Below the pieces are notes generated by a model. The model ran no database searches, was not told the DNA's origin, and worked only from the letters and a program-made list of their open reading frames with translations. A stretch of DNA of 36,604 nucleotides, taken from positions 1-36,604 of IMG/VR virus record IMGVR_UViG_3300047300_000283; one strand, written 5' to 3'. This document shows, piece by piece, positions 1-36,604 of this stretch. A program made the position numbers and the translations under genes. The DNA comes from a virus (Duplodnaviria; Caudoviricetes). Position 1 is the first letter of the stretch. Each line of letters opens with the position of its first letter.

Positions 1-282
1 CGGCTTCAGAAGACGAATATTCTTAGGAAGTATCCAAAAATGAAGTGGGGTCTGATTGACCTGAAACCTTATCCATGACACGCAAAGCAGTAAGCAATCA
101 AAGCGACAGATACATGATTGAACTTGGAGAGGCCAGAGTGCTTTTTCGCACTTACGAGGCAACAGGCAAGAAGGTTTTGACACCTGTTCGCATTGAGTGG
201 CTTGAGCGTACCTATGGAACTGGCTCTGTGGAGCGCATTAAGTCGTACATGGTAAAACTACAAAAAGGCGAACTGGAATGAC
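1..282. repeat. Terminal direct repeat, block 1 (copy at 34440-34721)
   Basis: Sequence from position 1 (cggcttcagaagacg...) recurs at 34440, offset 34439, with about 8 mostly synonymous substitutions. Homology ends after ...aactggaatgac. Confidence 0.95.
75..281 (+). CDS. Hypothetical phage protein (68 aa), near-identical to 34514..34720
   Basis: ATGA-coupled ORF. The two copies differ almost only at synonymous sites (one Y/F change), which supports coding function. Confidence 0.85.
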   Translation: MTRKAVSNQSDRYMIELGEARVLFRTYEATGKKVLTPVRIEWLERTYGTGSVERIKSYMVKLQKGELE

Positions 283-520
283 AAAACAAGGTGAAGCATC
301 TGTTTCGGCAAGACGGGCAAGTATGTACCGCAAGGTTCTTGCAATATTTGACCAAGTGCCAGACAAGTTTCAGGCAAGGCAAGTCTGTGAATTGGCTGGG
401 ATTAAAAAGATTCAGACCGAGTACCAAGTTCTTGCAAAGATACTTGAGCAAGACTTTAAGTGCATCCAGGCTGGTTACACATCACACGACAGACACTGGA
501 AAAAGCCATGTTCCAAGTAA
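278..520 (+). CDS. Hypothetical protein (80 aa), possibly winged-helix-like
   Basis: ATGA overlap with the upstream gene and overlap with the rusA start. Confidence 0.65.
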   Translation: MTKQGEASVSARRASMYRKVLAIFDQVPDKFQARQVCELAGIKKIQTEYQVLAKILEQDFKCIQAGYTSHDRHWKKPCSK

Positions 521-918
521 TTTTCTCGGTTGAAGGCGATCCAGTTGGCAAGCAACGCCCAAGGTTTTCAAGAGGCCGAACCTACACACCTAAGAAGACG
601 GTTGATTACGAGAAGCTGATTGCTGACAAAGCAAGACAAGCAATGGGGTCATCAGAACCTTTGTCAACGCCTGTAGCGGTTTATTTGTATGTCAACCATG
701 CCATACCCCTAAGCTACTCAAAAAAACGCCGTGAAGCCTGCTTAAATCGTTCTGAGCGACCAAAGAAGCCTGACCTTGATAATAGCGCAAAGGCTTATCT
801 CGATGCTATGAACGGCATTGTTTACAAAGACGATGTTCAGGTGGTCAGCCTTCATGTGACCAAGCGTTACGACACCATCGCCAGCGTCCATGTTTGCGTC
901 CGTGAGGAATTGCCATGA
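508..918 (+). CDS. rusA: RusA family Holliday junction resolvase
   Basis: Motifs GDPVGKQRPR, YTPKKT, KKPDLDNSAKAYLDAMNGIVYKDDVQVV. The MFQVIF start at 508 is preferred over 460. Confidence 0.92.
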   Translation: MFQVIFSVEGDPVGKQRPRFSRGRTYTPKKTVDYEKLIADKARQAMGSSEPLSTPVAVYLYVNHAIPLSYSKKRREACLNRSERPKKPDLDNSAKAYLDAMNGIVYKDDVQVVSLHVTKRYDTIASVHVCVREELP

Positions 919-1322
919 AGGTCACTTTGTTTAACGCCCAACAAGGCCACACAGCGATAACAGAGATATGGCAAAAGGCCAAGCCTTACCTGATGGCTGG
1001 CAATAAGCTGGTTCTGACGATTGAACAAGAAAAGCGCAGCCAAGAGCAAAACGCTTTGATGTGGTCAGTTCTGACAGACTTGTCAAAACAAGTTCCGTGG
1101 CATGGCGAAAAGCTGACCAAAGAAGAATACAAAGACTTGCTGACTGCTGGCCTGAAAAAGCAAAGAGCCATTCCCGGCATTGACGGTGGCTTTGTTGTTC
1201 TCGGAACATCAACCAGCAAGATGACCAAACAAGAAATGACTGACCTGATAACGCTGGCACACGCATTTGGTGATGAGCGAGAAGTTAAGTGGTCGCCAAC
1301 AAGCATTGGTTCTGATGACTAA
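915..1322 (+). CDS. ninB: NinB/Orf family recombination protein
   Basis: Motifs KRSQEQNALMW..LTDLSKQVPWHG, PGIDGGFVVLGTSTSKMTKQEMTDLI..AFG. Confidence 0.92.
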   Translation: MKVTLFNAQQGHTAITEIWQKAKPYLMAGNKLVLTIEQEKRSQEQNALMWSVLTDLSKQVPWHGEKLTKEEYKDLLTAGLKKQRAIPGIDGGFVVLGTSTSKMTKQEMTDLITLAHAFGDEREVKWSPTSIGSDD

Positions 1323-1602
1323 AGACGAAAAAGCGCACAAGCAAGCCGTGGCTTCTTTGGGCTGCGCTCTTTGCTATCACTTGCATGGGCCACACGATCC
1401 TGCGCCCGTGGAACTCCATCACCTTAGAGCAGGAGGATGGGGTAAAGGCGATTACAAAACATTGATTCCGCTATGCCCAGAGCATCACCGAGGAAACACT
1501 GGTGTTCACGGCTTGGGAACAAAAGGATTCGTCAAGCACTATGGAATAACGCAGCAAGAGTTGCTTGATTGGACGCTTCTAAGGGTTTGTCCTAATGCGT
1601 AA
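1315..1602 (+). CDS. ref: Ref-family (RecA-dependent) HNH-type nuclease
   Basis: Motifs VASLGCALC, ELHHLRAG, IPLCPEHHRG..GVHG. Start MTKDEK at 1315. Confidence 0.8.
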   Translation: MTKDEKAHKQAVASLGCALCYHLHGPHDPAPVELHHLRAGGWGKGDYKTLIPLCPEHHRGNTGVHGLGTKGFVKHYGITQQELLDWTLLRVCPNA

Positions 1603-1805
1603 ACCTAGAAATCTGTGGAAAATTACTTTGTCAACAACAGGAGATGTCCATGAACTACCAAGCCATTGCAACCGCAATGCGAGATGAAATTGCTAACCCT
1701 TTGAAGTGCTATATGCCAAACAGCCCTGCGGCATTTGTCCGTGACCGACTGTTTCAACAAGGCCGATGGGAAGACGCTACTTGGTTTTGGGGTTGCGTAT
1801 GCCGA
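1579..1805. repeat. Terminal direct repeat, block 3 (copy at 36378-36604)
   Basis: ctaagggtttgtcctaatgcg...tgcgtatgccga recurs at offset 34799, with two small patches of substitutions. Confidence 0.95.
1580..1623 (+). promoter_or_regulatory. Promoter A: TAAGGGTTTGTCCTAAT box plus TGTG-GAAAAT -10-like element
   Basis: The box recurs at four other operon starts at near-constant distance from a -10-like hexamer. Followed by caacaacAGGAG SD and ATG. Confidence 0.6.
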
Positions 1806-6085: not shown

Positions 6086-7102
6086 ATGGCTGATTTGATT
6101 GGCGGCTTACTTGGGTACATGAAAGACCCAAGGCGAACACAGCAAATGCAAGCATTGGCTGGATTGCTTACGAGCGCCAATGAACGGGCCAAAGGCTTCA
6201 ACGAACTGAACAGAGCCGCCACTGACGAGTTCTTGCAGACCAAGGACATTTACGGGCCAAAAGCACAGCAATTGGCTAAAACGCTTGCTGATGCCTACAA
6301 CCCTATAGGCTTGACAGTATTTCACGGTAGCCCCGCAAAATTCAGCAAGTTTGACCCAACAAAGATTGGTTCTGGTGAAGGCGCACAGGCTTATGGGTAT
6401 GGTCACTATGTGGCTGAAAGTCCTGATGTTGCAAGACGCTACCAGATGGGCTTGACGCAAGCAAAGGGTGAAGAAGTCCTTTACAAGAACAAACCACTTA
6501 CAGACTTGTATAGCCAAATTGAAAACAAGTCCATGAAGCTATCAGGCAAGGCCGCTGATATTGAGAATCAAAAGCTGCAACTGGTTGAGCATATGATGCT
6601 TGACAAGCCGCCACAAGAGTTGATTCCTTACGCCAAAGAGACAGGCTTTGACCAATCTGTCATTGATTGGCTTGAAAAAGATGTTGCAAAAAACACACAG
6701 ATTCCCGGCGCTTTCTATGAAATAGACTTGCCAGATGAACAAATTGCAAAAATGCTTGATTGGTATAAGCCGCTTAGTGAACAACCGAATGTACTGAAAG
6801 TATTAGAAACCCACCCAACAATGGGTAAGGAATCTATTGGATGGAAGGGAGCACCAGAAGGATTGTGGGAAAAATCCATGTCGCTTCCGTCTAAAACAGG
6901 TGAGTGGCTTTATAGAGAGATGCAAGGAAACAACCCGATTGAAACGTCAGAGGCACTGCGCCAATTTGGTATTCCGGGAATCCGATACCTAGACGAAGGA
7001 AGTCGTGGAGCAGAAAAAGGCACATCAAACTTTGTTGTCTTCCCCGGTAACGAAGGATTGCTTACAATACTCAAACGCAACAACAGCTTGCTAGACGATT
7101 AA
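6086..7102 (+). CDS. ADP-ribosyltransferase-like protein (ART-PolyVal type)
   Basis: VFHGSP..F.KFD..KIGSGEGAQAYGYGHYVAE and GIPGIRYLD..SR...TSNFVVF motifs. GAGGT SD. Confidence 0.7.
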   Translation: MADLIGGLLGYMKDPRRTQQMQALAGLLTSANERAKGFNELNRAATDEFLQTKDIYGPKAQQLAKTLADAYNPIGLTVFHGSPAKFSKFDPTKIGSGEGAQAYGYGHYVAESPDVARRYQMGLTQAKGEEVLYKNKPLTDLYSQIENKSMKLSGKAADIENQKLQLVEHMMLDKPPQELIPYAKETGFDQSVIDWLEKDVAKNTQIPGAFYEIDLPDEQIAKMLDWYKPLSEQPNVLKVLETHPTMGKESIGWKGAPEGLWEKSMSLPSKTGEWLYREMQGNNPIETSEALRQFGIPGIRYLDEGSRGAEKGTSNFVVFPGNEGLLTILKRNNSLLDD

Positions 7103-7160
7103 CAACCCCGCAGATGTAAGTCTGCATTAACCTTGACCAACCCTCGGGAGTCAAACCAAA

Positions 7161-7499
7161 ATGAATAAATTACAGGCCGGAAAATCTGAGAACTTAACCA
7201 ACCGTGGCAGGGGAAGGCCACCGGGAAGCGTTAATAAGGCCACCAAGACCTTTAGAGAGACTGTCAGTAGGTTACTAGAGGATAACGCTGAAAACGTCTC
7301 TAAATGGCTTTTAGAGGTTGCAGAGGGAAATCCCGAAAAAGAGATTCGACCAGACCCCAAAGGCGCTTTGACTTTGCTGGCGCAGATGGCCGAGTACGCT
7401 ACTCCTAAACTTAATCGAACTGAGGTCACTGGTGAAGACGGTGGCCCTGTAGAGATTTCAGCCATCCAAATCAAACTGGTCAAGCCGAATGAATCTTGA
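7161..7499 (+). CDS. terS: Terminase small subunit
   Basis: GRGRPPGSVNK N-terminus, EVTGEDGGPVEI C-terminus, immediately upstream of TerL. Confidence 0.8.
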   Translation: MNKLQAGKSENLTNRGRGRPPGSVNKATKTFRETVSRLLEDNAENVSKWLLEVAEGNPEKEIRPDPKGALTLLAQMAEYATPKLNRTEVTGEDGGPVEISAIQIKLVKPNES

Positions 7500-8739
7500 A
7501 CTGGACTTTCCCGAGAAATTGGGATTCCTGTTTGAGCCGCACCGATACAAGATTCTTTATGGTGGCCGTGGGTCTGCCAAGTCTTGGTCGGTGGCTCGGG
7601 CTTTGATTGCCATTGCGGTACAGAAGCAAACACGAATCCTTTGCGCCCGTGAGTTACAGAATTCAATCTCTGATTCTGTGATTGCTCTATTGGGCGACCA
7701 GATCAAAGCAATGGGGCTTGAATCGTTCTTTGATGTTCAGCGTACAGCTATCTACGGGAGGAACGGCTCAGAGTTCAGTTTTGCTGGTCTTAAGCACAAT
7801 GTCACTTCAATCAAGTCATTTGAGGGTGTTGACATCTGCTGGATTGAAGAAGGCCAAGCTGTTTCAAAGGTATCTTGGGAAACCTTGATTCCTACGATCC
7901 GCAAGCCAAACTCTGAGATTTGGGTGACTTTTAACCCTGACCTTGATACTGACGAGACTTACAAGCGTTTCGTGGTTAACCCGCCAGCAAGCGCAAAGAT
8001 TGCCAAGGTCAACTGGTCTGATAACCCGTGGTTCCCGCAAGTTCTCAAGGATGAACTGGAAGAACTCAAGGCTAAGAACATGGATTCTTACCTTAATGTC
8101 TGGGAAGGTCATACCCGACAGATGCTTGATGGCGCTGTCTATGCCAATGAACTGCGTAAGGCACAGGAAGAAAACCGCATCCGTGAACTGATTATTGACA
8201 AGACAATCCCTGTCCAGACCTTCTGGGACTTGGGTTGGGCAGACATGACTTCAATCTGGTTTGTTCAGGTTATCGCTGGCGGTGAGGTTCGGGTGATTGA
8301 TTTCTACCAAAACTGCCAAAAAACCATTGACCATTACGCACAAGTCTTGCAAGAGCGTGGTTACATTTACAAGGATTGGTGGCTTCCGCACGATGCTGAG
8401 AACAAGAATATGACGGGTAAATCCGTGAAAGACATTCTTGAAGGCATGGGCAAACCAATCCGAATCACGCCGAAACTCTCTATTGCTGACGGTATTAACG
8501 CCGCCAGAACATTAATGGATAGGGCGTTTTTTGACGAAACAAGGTGCGCTGATGGACTGCAAAACTTGCGCCATTACCGCTACGATGTTGATCCGAATAC
8601 CAAAATGTTCAGTAACAAGCCGTTACACGACCAGCACTCACACGCAGCAGACGCTTGGCGTTATGTTGCGGTAGCCTTAGATGAAGGCGTTACTGGTTGG
8701 GGTAAATCTATCAACAAAACTCCTAAATGGGTGGTCTAA
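7489..8739 (+). CDS. terL: Terminase large subunit (PBSX/XtmB family)
   Basis: Walker A YGGRGSAKS, Walker B ICWIEEG, TFNP, nuclease motifs WDLG and SHAADAWRY. Confidence 0.96.
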   Translation: MNLELDFPEKLGFLFEPHRYKILYGGRGSAKSWSVARALIAIAVQKQTRILCARELQNSISDSVIALLGDQIKAMGLESFFDVQRTAIYGRNGSEFSFAGLKHNVTSIKSFEGVDICWIEEGQAVSKVSWETLIPTIRKPNSEIWVTFNPDLDTDETYKRFVVNPPASAKIAKVNWSDNPWFPQVLKDELEELKAKNMDSYLNVWEGHTRQMLDGAVYANELRKAQEENRIRELIIDKTIPVQTFWDLGWADMTSIWFVQVIAGGEVRVIDFYQNCQKTIDHYAQVLQERGYIYKDWWLPHDAENKNMTGKSVKDILEGMGKPIRITPKLSIADGINAARTLMDRAFFDETRCADGLQNLRHYRYDVDPNTKMFSNKPLHDQHSHAADAWRYVAVALDEGVTGWGKSINKTPKWVV

Positions 8740-8925
8740 ATGTTCATGTTGCGTCAAGGTGATCTTTCAAGTGCCAAACGGGTTGAGGAACTTGAAAAGC
8801 GTGTAGAAATGCTTGAAACTGTGGTAAAAGCATTACAATTGCCTGAACGCCCAAAAGTCGGGCGACCTTCAAAGGTGAAAGATGAGCCAAAATCAACTCA
8901 AAGCGGCAGTCCAAGCAGCGATTGA
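8740..8925 (+). CDS. Small hypothetical protein (coiled coil plus GRP motif)
   Basis: Fills the TerL-portal gap. RPKVGRPSK. Confidence 0.55.
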   Translation: MFMLRQGDLSSAKRVEELEKRVEMLETVVKALQLPERPKVGRPSKVKDEPKSTQSGSPSSD

Positions 8926-11026
8926 CGATTCCATTGGGTTTCTGGAAACGGAAACCGTTGAACAGCGTAAGTTATCGCTTCAAGCGTATCTACGCCAACC
9001 ATACGGTAATGAAGTTGAAGGCAAGTCTTCAATTGTCACTGGCGAGGTTGCAGAAGCCATTGATGGCGCAATGCCTGCGCTTATCCGAATCTTTACTGGT
9101 TCTGACCAAATCGTTGTGGCTGACCCTGTTGGCCCCGGCGATGAAGCTGGCGCAAAGCAAGCCACCGACTACCTGAACCACATCTTCTTGAAAGATAACC
9201 CCGGCGTTATCATTCTTCACAATTGGTTCTTTGACGCTTTGTTGCAGAAGAACGGTATTGTTAAAGCCGTTTGGGAAGACAAAGAAGATGTTACTAAAGA
9301 GACTTATCAAGGTCTATCTGATGACGAACTGGCAATGCTGTTGCAAGACGAGAGCATTGAAGTTGTTGAGCAAGACACAGTAACTCAGCCTATTCTTGAC
9401 CCAATGGGTATGCCTGTGTTTGACGAGACAGGCGCACCAGCTACCTATGGCATCCATGATGTCACGATCAAGAAGACAGAGAAGTCAGGCAAGGTTGTAA
9501 TTGCCAATGTGCCTCCTGAAGAATTCCTGATTGCCAAGGCTGGTATCACAATTAATCAAACCCCGTTCTGCGCCCACCGCCGGATGATTACCCGTAGCGA
9601 TTTGGTCGCAATGGGCTTTGATGAAGAAATTGTCAACAGCTTGCCAACAGGTGATGCCCTTGCCTATACGCCAGAGCGTGTGGCTCGATTTGCTCCCGGT
9701 GAACAGCCATATGACGTTCAGACAGATGACTTCTCCATGCAAGAAGTTGAAGTCTTTGAGTGCTACATTCGCTACGATGGCGATGAAGATGGTATTGCAG
9801 AGATGCACCAAGTCTTCTACGCTGGCAACGAAATCCTGAGTGATGAAGAAACGGATTACATCCCCTTCTACTCTGTCTGCCCTCTGCCAATCCCACACAA
9901 GTTCTTTGGTAACTCGTTGGCTGACCGCACTGTTGACTTGCAACTGATTAAGACAACAGTAACTCGTCAGATGCTGGACAATATGTACCTGACCAACAAC
10001 AGCCGAGTGACTGCTGTTGAAGGCCAAGTTAACCTTGACGATTTGCTGACTTCCACCGCTGGTGGTGTGATCCGCACAAAGTCGCAGGGCGCTGTTCAGC
10101 AATTGAATGTGCAGAACATGGCGGCTCAGTCTTTCCCAATGTTGCAATACTTGGATTCTGTCCAAGCCAAGCGCACTGGTGTTACTGAACTGTCGCAAGG
10201 TCTTGACCCAAACATCTTGCAGAATGTGACCGCCGCAGCAGTGGCCTCCATGCAACAAGCTGGTTCAGGCAAGATTGAACTGATTGCCCGTATCTTTGCC
10301 GAATCTGGCGTTAAAGACCTGTTTGAAGGCATCCTTCACTTGGTCAGCAAGTACCAGCAGAAAGAGCGCATCATTCGTTTGCGTGGCACTTATGTAACTG
10401 TTGACCCTCGCACATGGGCAAACAAGTTTGACATCTCAATCAATGTCGGTTTGGGCAACGGCAACCGTGACCAGCAAATGGCAATGTTGCAGATGGTCTT
10501 GGCTAAACAAGAACAGATGATCGGTCAGTATGGCCCTGCAAACCCATTTGTTTCGTTTGGTCAGTACCGTGGTGTTCTTGGCCGTATGGTCGAGGCCGCT
10601 GGTTTCAAAGACTCTGCCGAGTTCTTTAAGCCAATCAGTCCTGAACTGGATCAGCAACTGTCTAATCCTCCACAGCAAGCGCCGCAAATGCCGCCTGAAG
10701 TTCAGGCATTGATGGCTAAGACGCAAGCAGATATTCAAGCCCAACAAGCCAAATTCCAAGCTGATATGCAAATGCAACAGCAAAAGATGATGGCCGACAT
10801 GGAGTTTGAGCGCCAGAAGGCCGCACTTGAGTTGCAACTCCAGCGTGAGAAAGCCGCCGCAGAGATTCAACTTATGCAAGAGAAAGAAGCGTCAAAACTT
10901 CAACTTGAGCGCGAGAAGATGAATATGCACTTTGCCATGAAACAGCAAGAGTTTGAGGCAGAAGCACAATTGAAGGCCATGAAAGTTGGCGCAGGCATTA
11001 CATCCAACATTGAAATTCCGGGGTGA
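8882..11026 (+). CDS. Portal protein (P22-like, with C-terminal Gln-rich coiled-coil barrel)
   Basis: 714 aa after TerL. WFFDALLQKNGIVK, NVPPEEF, P.PHKFFG.S.AD...DLQ motifs and a Q/E-rich C-terminus. Confidence 0.92.
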   Translation: MSQNQLKAAVQAAIDDSIGFLETETVEQRKLSLQAYLRQPYGNEVEGKSSIVTGEVAEAIDGAMPALIRIFTGSDQIVVADPVGPGDEAGAKQATDYLNHIFLKDNPGVIILHNWFFDALLQKNGIVKAVWEDKEDVTKETYQGLSDDELAMLLQDESIEVVEQDTVTQPILDPMGMPVFDETGAPATYGIHDVTIKKTEKSGKVVIANVPPEEFLIAKAGITINQTPFCAHRRMITRSDLVAMGFDEEIVNSLPTGDALAYTPERVARFAPGEQPYDVQTDDFSMQEVEVFECYIRYDGDEDGIAEMHQVFYAGNEILSDEETDYIPFYSVCPLPIPHKFFGNSLADRTVDLQLIKTTVTRQMLDNMYLTNNSRVTAVEGQVNLDDLLTSTAGGVIRTKSQGAVQQLNVQNMAAQSFPMLQYLDSVQAKRTGVTELSQGLDPNILQNVTAAAVASMQQAGSGKIELIARIFAESGVKDLFEGILHLVSKYQQKERIIRLRGTYVTVDPRTWANKFDISINVGLGNGNRDQQMAMLQMVLAKQEQMIGQYGPANPFVSFGQYRGVLGRMVEAAGFKDSAEFFKPISPELDQQLSNPPQQAPQMPPEVQALMAKTQADIQAQQAKFQADMQMQQQKMMADMEFERQKAALELQLQREKAAAEIQLMQEKEASKLQLEREKMNMHFAMKQQEFEAEAQLKAMKVGAGITSNIEIPG

Positions 11027-14055: not shown

Positions 14056-14643
14056 ATGTGTACCGTTGAAAACTGCGATAGAGTAATTTATGCGTATGGT
14101 TTATGCCATATGCACTATCAGCGTAACCGTAAGCATGGCGACCCTTTGGCTGGAGAAAAAAATCATGCTGCCCCGGAAGAAAGATTCTGGAGGTTTGTTG
14201 AAAAACATGAGGGATGCTGGAGGTGGATTGGAAGCAAATCTAATGGTTACGGACGGTTTTCTGTTGGCTCAAAAGCCGATGGCTATTTTTTGGCTCACAG
14301 GTTTTCGTGGGAATTGCATAACAAGCAAAAAATTCCAGATGGAATGTTTGTCATGCACAAATGCGACAATCCAGAGTGCACAAATCCTGAGCATTTAAGC
14401 CTTGGAACGCCAAAGCAAAACACGCAAGACATGATTGCAAAAGGCAGGAAAAAGACGGTTGCGCCTATTGGACTTGGAAACGGGAAGTCGTTGCTAAACG
14501 AGGAAAAAGTCAGATTGATACGTCAAAGTGATTTACCTCATACGGTAATTGCAAGACAATTAGGCGTTTCTGCTGGATGCGTCAGGGGCGTTAGGATTGG
14601 CAGAACATGGACTCATGTTCCAATTGTTGACAAACTAAAGTAA
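14056..14643 (+). CDS. HNH homing endonuclease (N-terminal Zn-finger, C-terminal HTH)
   Basis: CTVENC...GLC.MHYQR, CW.W.G, AHR.SWELH, VMHKCDNPECTNPEHL.LGT..QN..DM motifs. Confidence 0.92.
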   Translation: MCTVENCDRVIYAYGLCHMHYQRNRKHGDPLAGEKNHAAPEERFWRFVEKHEGCWRWIGSKSNGYGRFSVGSKADGYFLAHRFSWELHNKQKIPDGMFVMHKCDNPECTNPEHLSLGTPKQNTQDMIAKGRKKTVAPIGLGNGKSLLNEEKVRLIRQSDLPHTVIARQLGVSAGCVRGVRIGRTWTHVPIVDKLK

Positions 14644-29560: not shown

Positions 29561-30019
29561 CTATTGAAAATTCAGGACAGCGTTAATCCCATACTTTTGT
29601 CTAGCAAACAAGTCATATGCTTGAGCAGCTTCTACCTCAGTTTTAAAATATCCAATATGGACATTTTTACCATCATGTTTCACTTGAACTCTAAATTTAT
29701 TTGCGGATTTTTGACTATTGCAAAGACGTGACACTCCTATGTACTTTGATGTGTACTTGCCATGATGACTATTAGCCTTATTTCCTTGATGAGTTGTAAA
29801 TCTCAAATTAACTTTTCTGTTATCTAGGCCATTTCCATTTATGTGGTCAACAATTTGACCAGATTTTGCATTAATGATAAGCCTATGCAGATAAGTTCTT
29901 CCACTTCTTACGTATGTCACGTTCTTGTTTATTGATGAAGACCACGACTTGCCAAACACTAAGTGCCAATCTTCATCATCAATTATTGCTACGCCACCGT
30001 TTTTAAGTTGAATTTCCAT
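29561..30019 (-). CDS. HNH endonuclease with AP2 domain
   Basis: YLHRLI, VDHINGNGLDNRK.NLR, SKYIGV, IGYF.TE.EAA.AYD motifs. AT-rich. Confidence 0.92.
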   Translation of the reverse strand: MEIQLKNGGVAIIDDEDWHLVFGKSWSSSINKNVTYVRSGRTYLHRLIINAKSGQIVDHINGNGLDNRKVNLRFTTHQGNKANSHHGKYTSKYIGVSRLCNSQKSANKFRVQVKHDGKNVHIGYFKTEVEAAQAYDLFARQKYGINAVLNFQ

Positions 30020-31371: not shown

Positions 31372-31416
31372 ATTGTTAACTCAAAAAAAGTGTGTGTGTA
31401 TAGGTATAAACCCTAG
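31372..31416 (-). promoter_or_regulatory. Promoter C: CTAGGGTTTATACCTAT box plus AACAAT -10
   Basis: Same architecture as A and B, followed by caacaac-TTAGGAG-ATG. Confidence 0.6.
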
Positions 31417-31904
31417 GTTCTTACAAAATTCCCATGCAATTTTTTGGCGGCTTCTGTGTAAGCAAGTGCAGCTTCTTTTTCTGTCTTGAACGATCCAAGA
31501 TAGTGGCGCTTATTCATAAATCTAATTTCTGCGATCCAGCTATATTTTGATCTGTATATTCCTTTGTAAGAATTTCTTGAGTCAACTCTTTTTTTTCTAT
31601 TCATCATATTTTGCTGATGAGTCACTTCCCTAAGATTTGAAATTTGATTGTTGGTTCTATTTCCGTCTATGTGATCTATGTTTGTTGGATTCATGCCATA
31701 AACCATTGTCCATATCAATCTGTGTATTCGATAGATTTTTGTTTTCCCAGATAATTTTGTGTAGACAACAATGTATCCATGCTTGTCTTTTGCTGAAATT
31801 GGCTTTGATAAGTCTGTTGTATAAGCTCTTTTGATCCTCCAATAAAGATCGCCAGTTTTTTCGTCATATCTAAAATTTTCCAACAAGATTTGTTGAGTCA
31901 GCAT
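31413..31904 (-). CDS. HNH endonuclease with AP2 domain
   Basis: YD..TG.L.W, HRLIW...YG..P..IDHIDGNRTNN.I.NLR, YLG.F.T..EAA.AY motifs. The true start is MLTQQ at 31904 (GGAGG SD). Confidence 0.92.
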   Translation of the reverse strand: MLTQQILLENFRYDEKTGDLYWRIKRAYTTDLSKPISAKDKHGYIVVYTKLSGKTKIYRIHRLIWTMVYGMNPTNIDHIDGNRTNNQISNLREVTHQQNMMNRKKRVDSRNSYKGIYRSKYSWIAEIRFMNKRHYLGSFKTEKEAALAYTEAAKKLHGNFVRT

Positions 31905-31906
31905 AT

Positions 31907-32028
31907 GGCCTCCAAGCCAAAAAAAAGCCCAAGAGGACAGTCTCATCTTTCGATGTTGGAGGACATGGCTAGCACCATGCAGACTGCCTTCTTGGGCTTG
32001 CTAGATTGAATTATCGCCTCCAAGCGAT
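31907..32028 (-). ncRNA. c4-like antisense RNA with upstream and downstream target sites
   Basis: 19-bp closing stem (31925-31943/31981-31999) with two inner hairpins and a U-tail. Unpaired CCUCCAA and UGCUAG are complementary to flanking TTGGAGG (twice) and CTAGCA. Confidence 0.75.
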
Positions 32029-32088: not shown

Positions 32089-32271
32089 ATGAACCAACAC
32101 GACCAAGACGAGTACGAGGCAAGCGAGGCATTACTTAACTATGCGATTTCGCTTGTCAAACAGTACACAGACCATCCGGGTGATCTTGATGCGGCTACCA
32201 AAGCCCTATTGATTTCCACACTAGAACAACTTTTTAACAGGAGAATTTACATTGAGCAAGTTATTAGCTAA
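32089..32271 (+). CDS. Hypothetical protein (60 aa)
   Basis: First gene of the rightward operon. Confidence 0.65.
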   Translation: MNQHDQDEYEASEALLNYAISLVKQYTDHPGDLDAATKALLISTLEQLFNRRIYIEQVIS

Positions 32272-32668
32272 ACAGTATTACTTGGATCAGATCAAGAAAG
32301 ATAATGCGCCGCATCGAAAGATTGCAAACCGCATGGCTGGCAAGTTTGATGTTTCACCAGCGTTGATTAAAAATGAGTTGCTTGAGGAGGGCTACATTCG
32401 CATCTCTAAGGTTGTCTTTATCAAGGGTGAGCAAAAGCGTAACTTTTACTTTGAGTTGACTGACAAAGAATTGAGCACTGCTAAAGAAATTAAGTTCACA
32501 CAATCAAACAAGTGGGAAGACGGAACACCTAAGAGCAGTGGCAACGCATTTGATTTGTCCACCGCCAAGGGATTGTTTAACAAGTCTGAGTTGGCTGCTT
32601 CTCAGAACAAAGGCAAGCCACACAACTACAACACACCAGTGCAAATCATTGCGTACTCACGAGCATGA
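32252..32668 (+). CDS. Hypothetical protein, possible winged helix
   Basis: AGGAG SD, TTG start, ELLEEGYI.I.K pattern. Confidence 0.65.
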   Translation: MSKLLAKQYYLDQIKKDNAPHRKIANRMAGKFDVSPALIKNELLEEGYIRISKVVFIKGEQKRNFYFELTDKELSTAKEIKFTQSNKWEDGTPKSSGNAFDLSTAKGLFNKSELAASQNKGKPHNYNTPVQIIAYSRA

Positions 32669-32856: not shown

Positions 32857-33074
32857 GTGGCAAAGGGAGTTCACCAAGACCGTTCTCTGTATCCGCAGAG
32901 GATTTTTCAAACCGATGGGATGCCATCTTTTCAAAAGGAAAGTCAAATGTTAACAATGTTCCAAAAGAAACCAGTGGGCCAGATGGCTCGACTCCAACTG
33001 TTACTGAGCAGGAAAGAGGGAGCGACAGCAGCGGAAATTGCTCGCTATCTGCCGACCACAAGCCCCCACAGTAA
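32853..33074 (+). CDS. Small hypothetical protein (GKGSSPRPFSV...F..RWD.IF)
   Basis: ATGA coupling. Recognisable N-terminal motif. The 3' part overlaps the next gene. Confidence 0.6.
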   Translation: MSGKGSSPRPFSVSAEDFSNRWDAIFSKGKSNVNNVPKETSGPDGSTPTVTEQERGSDSSGNCSLSADHKPPQ

Positions 33075-33171
33075 GATGGCTAGGCTTGTCAGAACACATG
33101 GCTGGACAATCTTGAAAAAAGATAAAGCTGACGGAACAAAACAATACTTTGGAAAGGCTCCAAAAAAATGA
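32947..33171 (+). CDS. Winged helix-turn-helix protein
   Basis: LL.RKEGATAAEIARYLPTTSPHSKMARL...G..I pattern. AAGGA SD. Confidence 0.7.
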   Translation: MLTMFQKKPVGQMARLQLLLSRKEGATAAEIARYLPTTSPHSKMARLVRTHGWTILKKDKADGTKQYFGKAPKK

Positions 33172-33545
33172 GCGACTTGTTTGAATCAGGGTTTGACAAG
33201 TTTTGGGCTATTTGGCCTAAGCACCCACGCAAAGGGGCTAAATCAAAGTGCCAAGAGGTTTGGAAGAAGACTTACTGCGAGTCGTGTGCTGACCAGATCG
33301 TCAAACACATTGCTTGGATGCTGACAACAGACGCATGGCGTAAGGACGCAGGGGCGTACATTCCTGCACCTTTGGTTTACCTGAATCAACAACGGTGGGA
33401 TGGCGCTGAAATACCAGAAAACTTCCAAGCCAAAGCTGTTGAGATTGTTGACCCAGCACTGCAAAAGATTGCTGAGGATAGAACTAAGGCAGCTCCTATG
33501 CCTGAGCACATTCGAGAGAAGCTAAGGCAGATCAGAAAAATGTGA
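33168..33545 (+). CDS. Replication initiator/replisome-organiser C-terminal-domain protein
   Basis: FDKFW.IWPK..RK..K......WKK and YIPAP..YLNQQRWD motifs. No N-terminal HTH. Confidence 0.75.
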   Translation: MSDLFESGFDKFWAIWPKHPRKGAKSKCQEVWKKTYCESCADQIVKHIAWMLTTDAWRKDAGAYIPAPLVYLNQQRWDGAEIPENFQAKAVEIVDPALQKIAEDRTKAAPMPEHIREKLRQIRKM

Positions 33546-33553
33546 TTTTTCTT

Positions 33554-33581
33554 AAAAGGGGCTTGACAGGCTCCTTTTTTT
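33554..33581 (+). terminator. Intrinsic terminator after the replication gene
   Basis: AAAAGGGGC-TTGACAG-GCTCCTTTTTTT. Confidence 0.7.
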
Positions 33582-33591
33582 ATGGCGTAAT
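33563..33591 (+). promoter_or_regulatory. Sigma70 promoter TTGACA-17-(TG)-CGTAAT
   Basis: Consensus -35, 17-nt spacer, extended -10. The first RNA hairpin starts 7 nt downstream. Confidence 0.75.
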
Positions 33592-33597
33592 TGAATC

Positions 33598-33700
33598 GTT
33601 GCCGTGGAAAGCGACCGACTTTTAAAGCCGTTTACTCATGCCTTCGCCCTTGGTTTTTACTTTAGGGTTTCCACCGAGGGCAGTAGTAAGCGGCTTTTTT
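33598..33700 (+). ncRNA. c4-like/attenuator RNA
   Basis: Hairpin with a GTGGAAA loop, then a 13-bp plus 8-bp stem with a bulged TTTCCAC complementary to that loop, ending in U6. Confidence 0.7.
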
Positions 33701-33721
33701 GTTTGTCAAGTCACATCAACC

Positions 33722-33993
33722 CTCAGAGCGGGTTAGCTAATAGGCCAATGTCGGGGCCGTACTCAAGAAACCGATGCCGCTATATGACCCCCGGCGGCGT
33801 GGCGTTCCGTAGCGACCACAAAAACGAGCAAGCAAACCGACACTCAGCGATTGGCCCACGAAACGGGTGCTCGACAATTGAATACGGCATCAAGTGAGCA
33901 GTGGGCTAATTTTGGTTTTTTTACCTTTTTTAGTTGGCTGAGAGATTCATCAAGACGGTACAACTGGGTACAGGTCGGGAGTCTCGGGGGTCA
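33722..33993 (+). ncRNA. Candidate large structured (pseudoknotted) ncRNA
   Basis: Several long-range complementary segments (listed in findings) and no credible ORF. Confidence 0.5.
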
Positions 33994-34014
33994 CCTATGA
34001 CTAAAAATAAAAAG

Positions 34015-34058
34015 TAAGGGAAAACACCGATGCAAAAACTCATAAAGCTGTGGACAAT
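34015..34058 (+). promoter_or_regulatory. Promoter E: TAAGGGAAAACACCGAT box plus TGTG-GACAAT -10 (leaderless)
   Basis: Same 40-nt spacing from GGG to the -10 end as promoter A. ATG follows 7 nt later. Confidence 0.55.
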
Positions 34059-34332: not shown

Positions 34333-34517
34333 CCCGCACTTATGCGATGAAGCGACTGTTAGAGCATGGTGAGTTAACAAGCAAAGAGTTAATTGAGATA
34401 ACGGGCTGGAAATCAAAACAAGTGTGGGCAACCATTCAACGGCTTCAGAAGACGAATATTCTTAGGAAGTATCCAAAAATGAAGTGGGGTCTGATTGACC
34501 TGAAACCTTATCCATGA
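34329..34517 (+). CDS. Winged helix-turn-helix protein
   Basis: LLEHGELTSKELIEITGW....V...IQRL pattern. Its 3' end is repeated at window positions 1-78. Confidence 0.75.
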   Translation: MTRTYAMKRLLEHGELTSKELIEITGWKSKQVWATIQRLQKTNILRKYPKMKWGLIDLKPYP

Positions 34518-34720
34518 CACGCAAAGCAGTAAGCAATCAAAGCGACAGATACATGATTGAACTTGGCGAGGCCAGAGTGCTTTTTCGCACTTACGAGGCA
34601 ACAGGCAAGAAGGTTTTGACACCTGTTCGCATTGAGTGGCTTGAGCGCACCTATGGCACTGGGTCTGTGGAGCGCATTAAGTCGTTTATGGTGAAACTAC
34701 AAAAAGGAGAACTGGAATGA
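34514..34720 (+). CDS. Hypothetical phage protein (second copy of 75..281)
   Basis: 67 of 68 residues identical. Confidence 0.85.
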   Translation: MTRKAVSNQSDRYMIELGEARVLFRTYEATGKKVLTPVRIEWLERTYGTGSVERIKSFMVKLQKGELE

Positions 34721-35421
34721 CTCCACTGATAAACAGAATGGTCAGAATAACTCCAGACCCAGAATTGGCTCAATGGTTCGATATGGGTGACACCAGTGAG
34801 CGACCTGATGGCCACATTCCTGACGCTGAGATGTTTCTCCTTCCCTACAAGATTTGTTGCGTGGTTGGCAAACAAAGCAATGGGACTGCGTTTGTATTGC
34901 GTTTGCAAACTTCAGATTCGGCAGAATCCTTGTCCGTAGCAGGTTTTGTTGTTGGACAAAGTGATGAATGGAAACACGCAATAGAGCCGTTTCTGGTTGC
35001 GCGAACAGACAAAGGGTTGCAAATATCCACACATGATGGAAGCGACCCAACAGAAAATAGCGAATGGAAAGCAGTATTGCAGCACGTTGAGGATTTCTTG
35101 TTGTCCCTTCAGCAAACACGCACTTGCTACACACCAACCCCAAGGAAATCGCTTATTAACAGCAAACGGGCATCCAAAGGAAAGGGGCCAGTGTTGTTTG
35201 ACTGGCACACGGTTGAGATTAAGCCACCTCAGACAAAGAACGACCCACAAGGAGGAACACACGCAAGCCCGAGAAGGCATCAAGCTCGTGGCTATTGGCG
35301 CACCTATAAGTCTGGCAAGCGTGGTTGGGTTAAAGAATCATGGAGAGGTGACGCAAGCAAAGGCTCAGTTTTTAAGGACTACAAAATAAAGGAACAAGAT
35401 GAGATACGCTGCCAGAGTTGA
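34717..35421 (+). CDS. Hypothetical protein with C-terminal HASPRRH..RG.WR motif
   Basis: 234-aa ATGA-coupled ORF. GGTHASPRRHQARGYWR...GK..WVK..W.GD...G.V.KDY motif. Confidence 0.8.
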   Translation: MTPLINRMVRITPDPELAQWFDMGDTSERPDGHIPDAEMFLLPYKICCVVGKQSNGTAFVLRLQTSDSAESLSVAGFVVGQSDEWKHAIEPFLVARTDKGLQISTHDGSDPTENSEWKAVLQHVEDFLLSLQQTRTCYTPTPRKSLINSKRASKGKGPVLFDWHTVEIKPPQTKNDPQGGTHASPRRHQARGYWRTYKSGKRGWVKESWRGDASKGSVFKDYKIKEQDEIRCQS

Positions 35422-35665
35422 TGCAAACCAAGCACAGATTGTCTCGGCACTAAGAGCCGCTGGCGCTTATGTCTGGATTATCGGCTTGCCTGTTGACCTT
35501 TTAGTTGGCTACAACGAACAGACATTCTTGGTTGAAATCAAGATTGGCCCCAAAAAGCGTTTAACGAAGCTACAGCAAGACTTTTTTGAAAATTGGTCTG
35601 GTAGTACGTTAGCAAGGATTGATGGCCCTGAAGCGGCTTTAAGAATGATTGGTGTTGCCAAGTGA
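35399..35665 (+). CDS. VRR-NUC-like PD-(D/E)xK nuclease
   Basis: RVDANQ..IV..LR..G, PVDLLVGY, LVEIK, LT..Q..F motifs. Confidence 0.82.
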   Translation: MRYAARVDANQAQIVSALRAAGAYVWIIGLPVDLLVGYNEQTFLVEIKIGPKKRLTKLQQDFFENWSGSTLARIDGPEAALRMIGVAK

Positions 35666-36084
35666 AAGTCACACTTCATAACGCCCAACAGGGGTACACG
35701 GCAATCACAGAGGTCTGGCAGAAGGCCAAGCCTTATCTGATGGCTAATAACAAGCTGATTTTGACCTTGGAAGAAGAAAAGCGCAGCCTTCCTCAAAATC
35801 GAATTATGTGGAGCATCTTGACCGATCTAGCAAATCAAGTTGCTTGGCATGGTCAAAAGCTGACCAAAGAAGAATACAAGGACTTGCTGACTGCTGGCCT
35901 GAAGAAGCAAAGAGCCATTCCCGGAATTGAAGGTGGCTTTGTTGTTCTTGGAACATCAACCAGCAAGATGACTAAACAAGAGATGACAGACCTGATAACG
36001 CTTGCTCACGCTTTTGGTGATGAGCGTGGTGTTAAGTGGTCGTCCACAAGTATTGGATCGCAAGATGATGTTTCCGAAGCATAA
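35662..36084 (+). CDS. ninB: NinB/Orf family protein (diverged second allele of 915..1322)
   Basis: Co-linear and highly similar to the first copy. GTG start. Confidence 0.92.
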   Translation: MKVTLHNAQQGYTAITEVWQKAKPYLMANNKLILTLEEEKRSLPQNRIMWSILTDLANQVAWHGQKLTKEEYKDLLTAGLKKQRAIPGIEGGFVVLGTSTSKMTKQEMTDLITLAHAFGDERGVKWSSTSIGSQDDVSEA

Positions 36085-36394
36085 ATACATCCGAAGCAAA
36101 AAGCTGTTGGAGGCCGCTAGGCAAATACCTTGCCAGCACTGTGGCGCTGATGACGGTACAGTGGTTGCTGCCCACACAAATTGGGGTGGCGGTAAGGGTA
36201 GAGGAATTAAAGCCGATGACAACCTGATCGCAAGCCTTTGCTTTGCCTGTCACAGCCAGCTTGACCAAGGTTCAGCAATGAGTAAGGAAGACCGCATTGC
36301 CTTATGGTCAAACGCTCACTTTCTGACTGTCAAAGTTTTGCAAGTTGAAGGGCTGTGGCCTGATGATGTTCCATTACCTAAGGGTTTGTCCTAA
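36065..36394 (+). CDS. YbcO/DUF1364/DUF968-like Zn nuclease-domain protein
   Basis: RSKKLL.AAR..PCQ.CG, TVVAAH, KG.GIKADD, LC..CH..LD motifs. Start at 36065 or 36068. Confidence 0.78.
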   Translation: MMFPKHKYIRSKKLLEAARQIPCQHCGADDGTVVAAHTNWGGGKGRGIKADDNLIASLCFACHSQLDQGSAMSKEDRIALWSNAHFLTVKVLQVEGLWPDDVPLPKGLS

Positions 36395-36448
36395 TGCGTA
36401 AACCGATAAATCTGTGGAAAATTACTTTGTCAACAACAGGAGATGTCC

Positions 36449-36604
36449 ATGAACTACCAAGCCATTGCAACCGCAATGCGAGATGAAATAAACGACCCAA
36501 AGCCTTGCTATATGCCAAACAGCCCTGCGGCATTTGTCCGTGACCGACTGTTTCAACAAGGCCGATGGGAAGACGCTACTTGGTTTTGGGGTTGCGTATG
36601 CCGA
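36449..36604 (+). CDS. Partial second copy of 1650..1904 (truncated by the window end)
   Basis: Identical apart from the EIANPLKC vs EINDPKPC patch. Confidence 0.8.
   Translation, partial: MNYQAIATAMRDEINDPKPCYMPNSPAAFVRDRLFQQGRWEDATWFWGCVCR

What the first reader, a model, noticed from the sequence alone, without database searches (positions are those of the whole stretch)
33545..34010. Large pseudoknot-rich ncRNA candidate behind a 'headless' replication protein: possible RNA-primed or RNA-guided replication module
Seen: this is the only long non-coding stretch (~460 nt) in a tightly packed genome. It has its own consensus promoter and many complementary pairs: GGCCAAT 33743-49 / ATTGGCC 33850-56; TGTCGG 33749-54 / CCGACA 33837-42; GATGCCG 33773-79 / CGGCATC 33885-91; CGAGCA 33825-30 / TGCTCG 33868-73; TGACCCCCG 33785-93 / CGGGGGTCA 33985-93; CTCAG 33722-26 / CTGAG 33938-42. 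Several of these cross each other, implying pseudoknots or alternative folds. The upstream gene (33168..33545) has only the C-terminal domain of phage initiators. I see no iterons, helicase, helicase loader, primase or polymerase in the genome. Established: ColE1 RNAII is a structured primer RNA that uses a G-tract to form an R-loop, and large structured RNA motifs (ARRPOF, PAGEV, GEBRO) have been linked to replication regions. Inference: this RNA could replace the missing origin-binding function as a primer/R-loop origin or an RNP partner, gated by the upstream attenuator.
Basis: partly seen in the sequence, partly recalled or inferred. Interest (0 to 1): 0.78.

Follow-up and report, generated by a model that had tools for sequence, protein, structure and literature searches.

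The report
Swappable knotted RNAs at phage origin
This gap holds a conserved, knotted folded element, one of five interchangeable uncatalogued types found once per genome beside a truncated replication-start protein in environmental phages, and it is likely an RNA that primes phage DNA copying in place of the protein's missing DNA-binding half.

Summary
The gap is real and has two parts behind a promoter-like site: a ~105-nt c4/seqA-like switch (33598-33703) and a ~280-nt element, B1 (33719-34000). Folding B1 alone is no better than chance, but its 53-pair, three-pseudoknot model is fully paired in 13 homologues, with 9 compensatory pairs. Three listed helices hold, one in part, two fail. There is no Rfam hit and no detectable ColE1 homology. 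The upstream protein is only the C-terminal domain of phage initiators. 153 of 155 such headless loci carry exactly one of five structured classes (B1-B5), against 0 of 6 full-length initiators. Identical proteins sit with different classes, so a sequence-specific RNP or guide is unlikely. Complete genomes carry one copy and no detected helicase, primase or polymerase. Best reading (0.5, inferred): an RNA-primed, R-loop origin working like ColE1 RNA II, with the protein as a loader adaptor. Against: B1 also occurs in phages with their own helicase and primase, and no origin activity or stranded transcript is shown. The scan noted the switch before (e1-9799808) and similar primer ideas on other DNA.

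The parts
33168..33545 (+). Headless replication-initiator protein, 125 aa: C-terminal domain of phage initiators plus a short helical tail
   Evidence: PHROG 9474/270/9327 C-terminal parts only; 753 relatives of 68-219 aa; 28 longer relatives, many with HTH_36 or DUF1376 N-termini
33554..33581 (+). Terminator-like hairpin plus U run closing the initiator gene; overlaps the -35 box
   Evidence: fold z -2.45; similar hairpin in L001, L002, L004, L005, L015
33563..33591 (+). Sigma-70-like promoter TTGACA-17-CGTAAT (predicted; start near 33598)
   Evidence: 10 of 12; 27 of 93 homologous upstream regions reach 10 or more of 12, against 0 of 93 control regions; not called
33598..33703 (+). Module A: c4/seqA-like switch. 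5' hairpin loop GTGGAAA (33604-10) is complementary to bulge TTTCCAC (33668-74) in a long terminator-like stem followed by U6
   Evidence: fold z -5.14, 0 of 200 shuffles; the 7-mer and its partner change together in 11 homologous modules, 4 other keys; no Rfam hit
33719..34000 (+). Module B1: ~280-nt structured element, 7 nested helices and 3 crossing pairings (33749-54/33837-42; 33807-11/33883-87; 33786-92/33986-92)
   Evidence: 53 pairs, 689 of 689 cells paired, 9 pairs changed on both sides in 13 sequences; slid controls 31-48% paired
33984..34007 (+). 3' tract: G5, CCTATG, A5; predicted RNA-to-DNA switch region
   Evidence: sequence; G tract invariant in B1; CTAT invariant in 25 of 25 B2 rows; same order of elements as at ColE1 1175-1197, by eye only
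33604..33897 (+). 97-codon ORF across modules A and B1, judged spurious
   Evidence: no Pfam or PHROG hit; 1-2 nt indels between B1 subtypes and stops in every frame of homologues

Best explanation
The element is likely an RNA-primed replication origin: a transcript from the promoter at 33563 that passes the module A switch would fold into B1, stay hybridised to its template at the 3' G-tract, and be trimmed and extended by host enzymes, while the headless protein would load the host helicase onto the displaced strand. Shown: conserved fold on the + strand, one copy per genome, near-obligate but swappable pairing with headless initiators, no B element beside full-length initiators, no detected phage replication enzymes. 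Inferred: transcription, R-loop formation, use of host RNase H and Pol I, the loader role, and module A as a copy-number or exclusion switch whose 7-mer gives specificity. One specific guess: the loop GACCCCCG (33786-93) captures the complementary 3' tract, in the RNA or on the non-template DNA strand, and so keeps the bubble open.
For: Structure: B1 689 of 689 cells paired, 9 of 53 pairs compensatory. The related class B2 has 97.6% of 825 cells paired and 24 of 34 pairs compensatory, with a pseudoknot in 25 of 25 rows; G-U variants point to the + strand. Association: 153 of 155 headless loci carry exactly one of B1-B5 (123 of 125 distinct), and the two misses are contig ends; 0 of 6 full-length loci do. 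DnaB-type helicase: 0 of 5 complete headless genomes, 3 of 5 fragmentary full-length records. No helicase, primase or polymerase hit among 64 long ORFs (of 120 listed) of those 5 genomes. One element in each of 11 records. The element lies upstream or downstream of the gene, always on the sense strand. RNA class changes 35 times on the protein tree, minimum 4. An interior segment pairs with the 3' tract and covaries in B1 and B2. B5 has interior and 3' G tracts laid out like the two G6 tracts of ColE1 (the interior tract was part of my search pattern). ColE1 and MRB plasmids show that Rep-free RNA origins exist (PMC5043065, PMC3035462, passages read).
Against: No origin activity, RNA end or R-loop was observed. 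GC skew follows gene direction and is uninformative. B1 also lies in five phage records without the headless protein, and the two I annotated encode their own SF2 helicase and primase. Only 23 of 112 B5 loci have the protein within 800 nt. No sequence or CM similarity to ColE1 RNA II and no plasmid carries B1-B4. No antisense (RNA I-like) promoter above control. Module A ends in a terminator-like stem, which should stop many transcripts before B1. B1's loop is an inverted copy of its 3' tract, whereas the ColE1 G tracts are direct repeats. Classes B3-B5 were defined from the same loci, so the 153 of 155 is partly by construction; all loci belong to one phage group, and the full-length control is small. 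B1 covariation comes from about three subtypes.
Confidence: 0.5

Rival explanations
1. B1 is a cis-acting leader of the early rightward operon (antiterminator or translation-control RNA, put-like), gated by module A; the link with headless initiators reflects shared ancestry of these phages.
For: It always follows a promoter and a c4-like switch on the sense strand. In most loci it ends 1-284 nt before the initiator start. P4 CI/seqA controls replication genes by premature termination (PMC4825925, passage read). One RNA-run contig continues into downstream genes.
Against: It sits after the initiator gene in the window and several relatives, and downstream genes vary. In the helicase-primase phages a separate promoter-like site follows B1 directly (by eye). 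A leader model does not explain absence beside full-length initiators.
Confidence: 0.2
2. B1 is a stand-alone trans-acting RNA (scaffold or decoy for a host factor), processed from the module A transcript, with no direct role in priming.
For: Ornate fold, movable as a unit, present with different replication gene sets. Contigs from two RNA runs begin near its 5' edge (33711, 33732), a weak hint only.
Against: Five dissimilar classes are mutually exclusive, one per genome, in one slot. There is no conserved terminator at the 3' end; a conserved G/C tract sits there instead.
Confidence: 0.14
3. The structure acts as single-stranded DNA (primosome-assembly or single-strand origin signal) opened by transcription, not as RNA.
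For: Covariation cannot tell RNA from ssDNA; Weinberg 2017 raises this for ARRPOF, GEBRO and PAGEV (PMC5737381, passage read). A DnaA-box-like 9-mer lies at 34049-57.
Against: Frequent G-U substitutions on the + strand, a UUCG loop in one B1 subtype, and a dedicated promoter and switch upstream.
Confidence: 0.1
4. B1 and the 33168 protein form a sequence-specific RNP in which the RNA guides the protein to the origin.
For: Near-obligate adjacency.
Against: Proteins 100% identical occur with B2 or B3. Among pairs at 95% identity or more, 103 of 213 differ in RNA class; 35 class changes on the tree; B1 and B5 occur without the protein.
Confidence: 0.06

Closest known systems
ColE1 RNA II pre-primer with RNA I (PMC5043065, passages read)
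   Same: No full Rep protein; a promoter about 400-550 nt upstream of a G-tract/CCTATG/A5 end; a regulatory 5' domain; dependence on host enzymes expected.
   Different: No detectable sequence or CM similarity; no opposite-strand RNA I promoter; found in phages, not plasmids; accompanied by an initiator C-terminal domain; B1's loop is complementary to, not identical with, the 3' tract.
MRB plasmid RNA I/RNA II of Vibrionaceae (PMC3035462, passages read)
   Same: Rep-free origin with an RNA of about 465 nt; specificity set by variable loops of a small regulatory RNA.
   Different: MRB RNA I is antisense from the other strand; no blastn match of B1-B4 in the plasmid collection; not compared structurally.
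ARRPOF, PAGEV, GEBRO motifs (PMC5737381, passages read)
   Same: 223-349-nt structured elements tied to replication regions, mechanism unknown.
   Different: No Rfam match at E up to 10 for the window region; those are plasmid motifs of Fusobacterium, Vibrionales and Streptococcus.
P4 CI RNA/seqA and P1 c4 antisense systems (PMC4825925, passage read; c4 details recalled)
   Same: Module A has a 5' hairpin loop and a complementary bulge that change together, ahead of replication functions.
   Different: No Rfam C4 or c4-2 match; no second (seqC-like) copy of the key within 900 nt downstream in 11 of 11 modules; it gates an RNA rather than an ORF.
Lambdoid O-type initiators (PHROG 270/9474; HTH_36 or DUF1376 N-terminus)
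   Same: Shared C-terminal domain.
   Different: No N-terminal domain, no iterons, no adjacent helicase; a B element is present instead.

Membership tests
ColE1-type RNA II origin | Sequence or structure homology to RNA II | tested here: not met
   nhmmer B1, B2, B1+B2: no hit on NC_001371; B3, B4, B5: none; CM R1 has no hit in the RNA II region; blastn to plasmids gives chance hits or none
ColE1-type RNA II origin | Antisense RNA I from the opposite strand | tested here: not met
   antisense promoter scores (4 of 93 reach 9, none 10) are not above control; consensus scan only
ColE1-type RNA II origin | No plasmid- or phage-encoded origin-binding Rep | tested here: met
   only a C-terminal domain; small neighbouring ORFs of unknown function are not excluded
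ColE1-type RNA II origin | Persistent RNA-DNA hybrid, RNase H processing, Pol I extension | not testable with these tools
   needs bench work
ColE1-type RNA II origin | Direct-repeat G tracts about 250 nt apart (role recalled, tracts seen) | tested here: inconclusive
   B1 has TCGGGG at 33751 and 33984 (233 nt apart, invariant, no covariation); B5 has such tracts; B2 has repeated CACCC instead
ARRPOF / PAGEV / GEBRO / Polynucleobacter-1 | Match to the Rfam model | tested here: not met
   Rfam 15: none at gathering in the window or 20 loci; none of these at E up to 10, 5 or 1
c4 / P4 CI antisense RNA (module A) | Match to Rfam C4 or c4-2 | tested here: not met
c4 / P4 CI antisense RNA (module A) | Upstream seqA-like site complementary to a loop or bulge, covarying | tested here: met
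   (11 modules, 4 keys) plus the window key
c4 / P4 CI antisense RNA (module A) | Downstream seqC-like second target | tested here: not met
   0 of 11 have a copy within 900 nt
c4 / P4 CI antisense RNA (module A) | Processing to a trans-acting RNA | not testable with these tools
   only contigs were available, no raw reads
DnaT / DnaD C-terminal loader domains (protein 33168) | Fold or profile match | tested here: inconclusive
   AF2 pLDDT 73, pTM 0.42; no clear PDB match; nearest named Atlas cluster Phg_2220_C at 0.92, 130 shared features, a lead only
B2 class (same family as B1?) | Significant cross-detection | tested here: inconclusive
   B2 CM hits 33740-33855 at E 2.2 and L082 at E 8.3, right place and strand but not significant; B1 HMM hits one B2 5' end at E 0.018

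The most novel reading that the evidence does not exclude
A widespread group of phages has replaced the DNA-binding half of the lambdoid initiator, its iterons and its helicase with a plug-in primer RNA. At least five dissimilar pseudoknotted RNA classes have converged on this job and swap freely, each gated by a c4-like switch with a variable 7-nt key, and a leftover 120-aa domain recruits the host replisome.
Probability: 0.42. Interest if true: 0.88.

Novelty: new variant of a known kind. Interest (0 to 1): 0.76.

Why it matters
Dedicated primer RNAs are established for two plasmid families only (ColE1 and MRB, per PMC3035462). If these elements are origins, many phages that seem to lack replication genes are explained. 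Five natural, interchangeable solutions to holding an R-loop open become directly comparable in a simple plasmid assay, and they could give small new replicons. Even if the origin reading fails, these are five large covarying pseudoknotted RNA classes that are not in Rfam.

Tried and rejected
ColE1 homology, suggested by recalled motifs: not detected. Rfam searches: only sub-threshold chance hits. GTDB genome scan with a B2 pattern: 14 matches, none recognised by the B1 or B2 profiles, so the host is unknown. Four of the 40 matches (L110, L115, L121, L132) were chance and were dropped, as was one false anchor in L046. Wider B1 patterns returned the same 20 viral contigs and 10 metagenome stretches of the same subtypes. 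GC skew was uninformative. RNA runs: only assembled contigs of relatives. X16 covers 33732-34058 and runs on; X17 covers 33711-33888; strand, ends and level cannot be read and DNA carry-over is not excluded. Fold and sequence searches for the protein gave no clear match. One weak 54-residue SF2 helicase fragment hit in G009 (E 6.5e-6) was not borne out. The tree is the quick version; the careful search did not finish. No complex prediction was run. R-scape was not available. PMC12753305 (abstract only) was irrelevant.

Full report
Context. The window is a tailed phage genome (SU10-type portal and capsid, terminase, Erf, NinB, RusA). Its first 1.8 kb repeat its last 2.2 kb imperfectly (1-282 with 34440-34721 at 97%), so it holds a whole genome of about 34.4 kb although the record is listed as linear and 50% complete. 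No helicase, primase, polymerase or loader was found among the 48 ORFs scanned; smaller ORFs were not scanned. The host is unknown.

Observation. The six helices exist as written, and 33546-34049 is the only long gap. On the single sequence they are not remarkable. The gap splits into a terminator and promoter-like site (33554-33591), module A (33598-33703; z -5.14) and module B1 (33719-34000). The 97-codon ORF across it has no family hit and is not conserved.

Structure from homologues. A B1 pattern found 20 viral contigs and 10 metagenome stretches. I derived a 53-pair model by inspection of these sequences. On 13 rows it is paired in 689 of 689 cells, with 9 pairs changed on both sides; slid controls give 31-48% paired and at most 1 such pair. 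The changes come from about three subtypes, so they are few independent events. A commoner class, B2, has the same order of helices by eye and much stronger support: 25 rows (non-redundant from 67), 34 pairs, 97.6% paired, 24 compensatory, pseudoknot 100% paired. B1-B2 homology is suggestive only (CM E 2.2 at the right place).

The protein and the slot. Protein 33168 matches only the C-terminal part of phage initiator families. It has 753 short relatives and 28 longer ones, many with HTH_36 or DUF1376 N-termini. Its fold was not matched. I examined the best 80 of 497 loci from one scan and the best 80 of 582 from a second, plus the window. Of 155 headless loci, 153 carry exactly one structured element on the same strand: B2 73, B3 52, B4 19, B1 5, B5 4. 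The two misses are contig ends. None of 6 full-length loci carries one (one of the 6 is truncated and classed as full-length by its open frame). After removing duplicates the count is 123 of 125. B3, B4 and B5 were defined from these same loci; each shows covarying stems. The element is usually upstream of the gene and sometimes downstream, as here. Identical proteins occur with different classes, 103 of 213 pairs at 95% identity or more differ in class, and the class changes 35 times on a quick tree (minimum 4, shuffled mean 51). Eleven records each hold one element. Five complete headless genomes have no DnaB-type helicase and no phrog_2249 primase, and 64 of their 120 long ORFs gave no replication-enzyme hit. 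Three of five full-length records have a DnaB-type helicase. The GenBank genome MW202484 has the same layout with B2 and no annotated helicase or primase.

Against an obligate link. Five other B1 records gave no hit for the headless protein or for phrog_270; they are fragments. The two I annotated encode an SF2 helicase and a primase. Only 23 of 112 B5 loci have the protein within 800 nt. So the RNA does not need the protein, although the protein is almost never without an RNA.

Module A. A 7-nt loop and a complementary bulge change together in 11 homologous modules; several module A types combine with several B types. This resembles P4 seqA/CI (PMC4825925, passage read), but there is no Rfam match and no downstream second target. 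An earlier scan note (e1-9799808) described this switch; my one search agrees with it.

Mechanism. The pattern is what an origin would give: one per genome, independent of position, exchangeable, absent where a complete initiator and helicase exist, and ending in a conserved tract rather than a terminator. The window's 3' end (G5, CCTATG, A5) has the same order of elements as the ColE1 origin region in the fetched record, but the A run is missing in other B1 subtypes and profiles detect no homology. ColE1 priming by a persistent hybrid, RNase H and Pol I is described in PMC5043065 (section passages read); the role of the ColE1 G tracts and of PriA/DnaT is recalled. I put the RNA-primed origin at 0.5, a cis leader at 0.2, a trans-acting RNA at 0.14, an ssDNA signal at 0.1 and a specific RNP at 0.06. 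Nothing here shows transcription or origin activity; the RNA-run contigs are a weak hint at most.

Novelty. No Rfam family matches, and no plasmid matches B1-B4 or the protein. Ten literature searches listed no paper describing these elements. I read passages of PMC5737381 (supplement unreadable), PMC2864571, PMC5043065, PMC3035462, PMC4825925 and PMC10690425, and the abstract of PMC12753305. PMC10690425 lists 8,495 short (29-151 nt) candidate RNAs from IMG/VR. The searchable supplements held none of my motifs or contig ids, but several files, apparently including the alignments, could not be read, so fragments of B1-B5 may be catalogued there. Other scan notes propose primer RNAs in other phages (e1-7956810, e1-7961448, e1-5769018) or argue against that for similar layouts (e1-9721801, e1-6276359); I did not test them and do not count them as support. 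Verdict: a real, uncatalogued structured element that probably works like ColE1 RNA II without being a member of that family; interest 0.76.

Noticed in passing
window 1-1805 and 34440-36604: The two ends carry two divergent versions of the same nin region (97%, 82% and 94% identical blocks), so the contig wraps round through two strain variants and the genome is complete despite the 50% estimate.
   Followed up: partly
L012:2279-2561, L035:2215-2466, L015:3529-3863, L286:632-931: Four further uncatalogued structured classes (B2-B5) in the same slot; B5 occurs in 112 viral loci, mostly away from the headless protein, and shares its 5' hairpin with some B2 members.
   Followed up: partly
window 34049-34057: DnaA-box-like 9-mer just past B1, also in L001, L004, L005; B3 members L035, L036, L048 contain an exact box (consensus recalled).
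   Followed up: no
L015:2914-2987 (similar in L038): int-alpA-like hairpin below the gathering score (E 0.068) directly upstream of the headless initiator where the B element is downstream.
   Followed up: no
window 6086-7102: 338-aa ORF before the terminase genes with an ART-PolyVal ADP-ribosyltransferase domain hit just above the cut-off.
   Followed up: no
window 14056-14643, 29561-30019, 31413-31946: Three free-standing HNH endonuclease genes, two with AP2 domains.
   Followed up: no
L162:2747-3008, 6923-9237; L157: A second phage group carries B1 at the early divergence point with an SF2 helicase-primase pair and no detected initiator; an extra hairpin often lies between module A and B1.
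   Followed up: partly
run X14, loose end at window 33821: A more divergent B1 variant whose P4 stem appears to carry further compensatory changes (30-nt consensus only).
   Followed up: no
window 32252-32668 and 32857-33171: Two conserved small ORFs upstream of the initiator with no family hit; either could supply DNA binding in trans, but they are absent from many headless loci.
   Followed up: no
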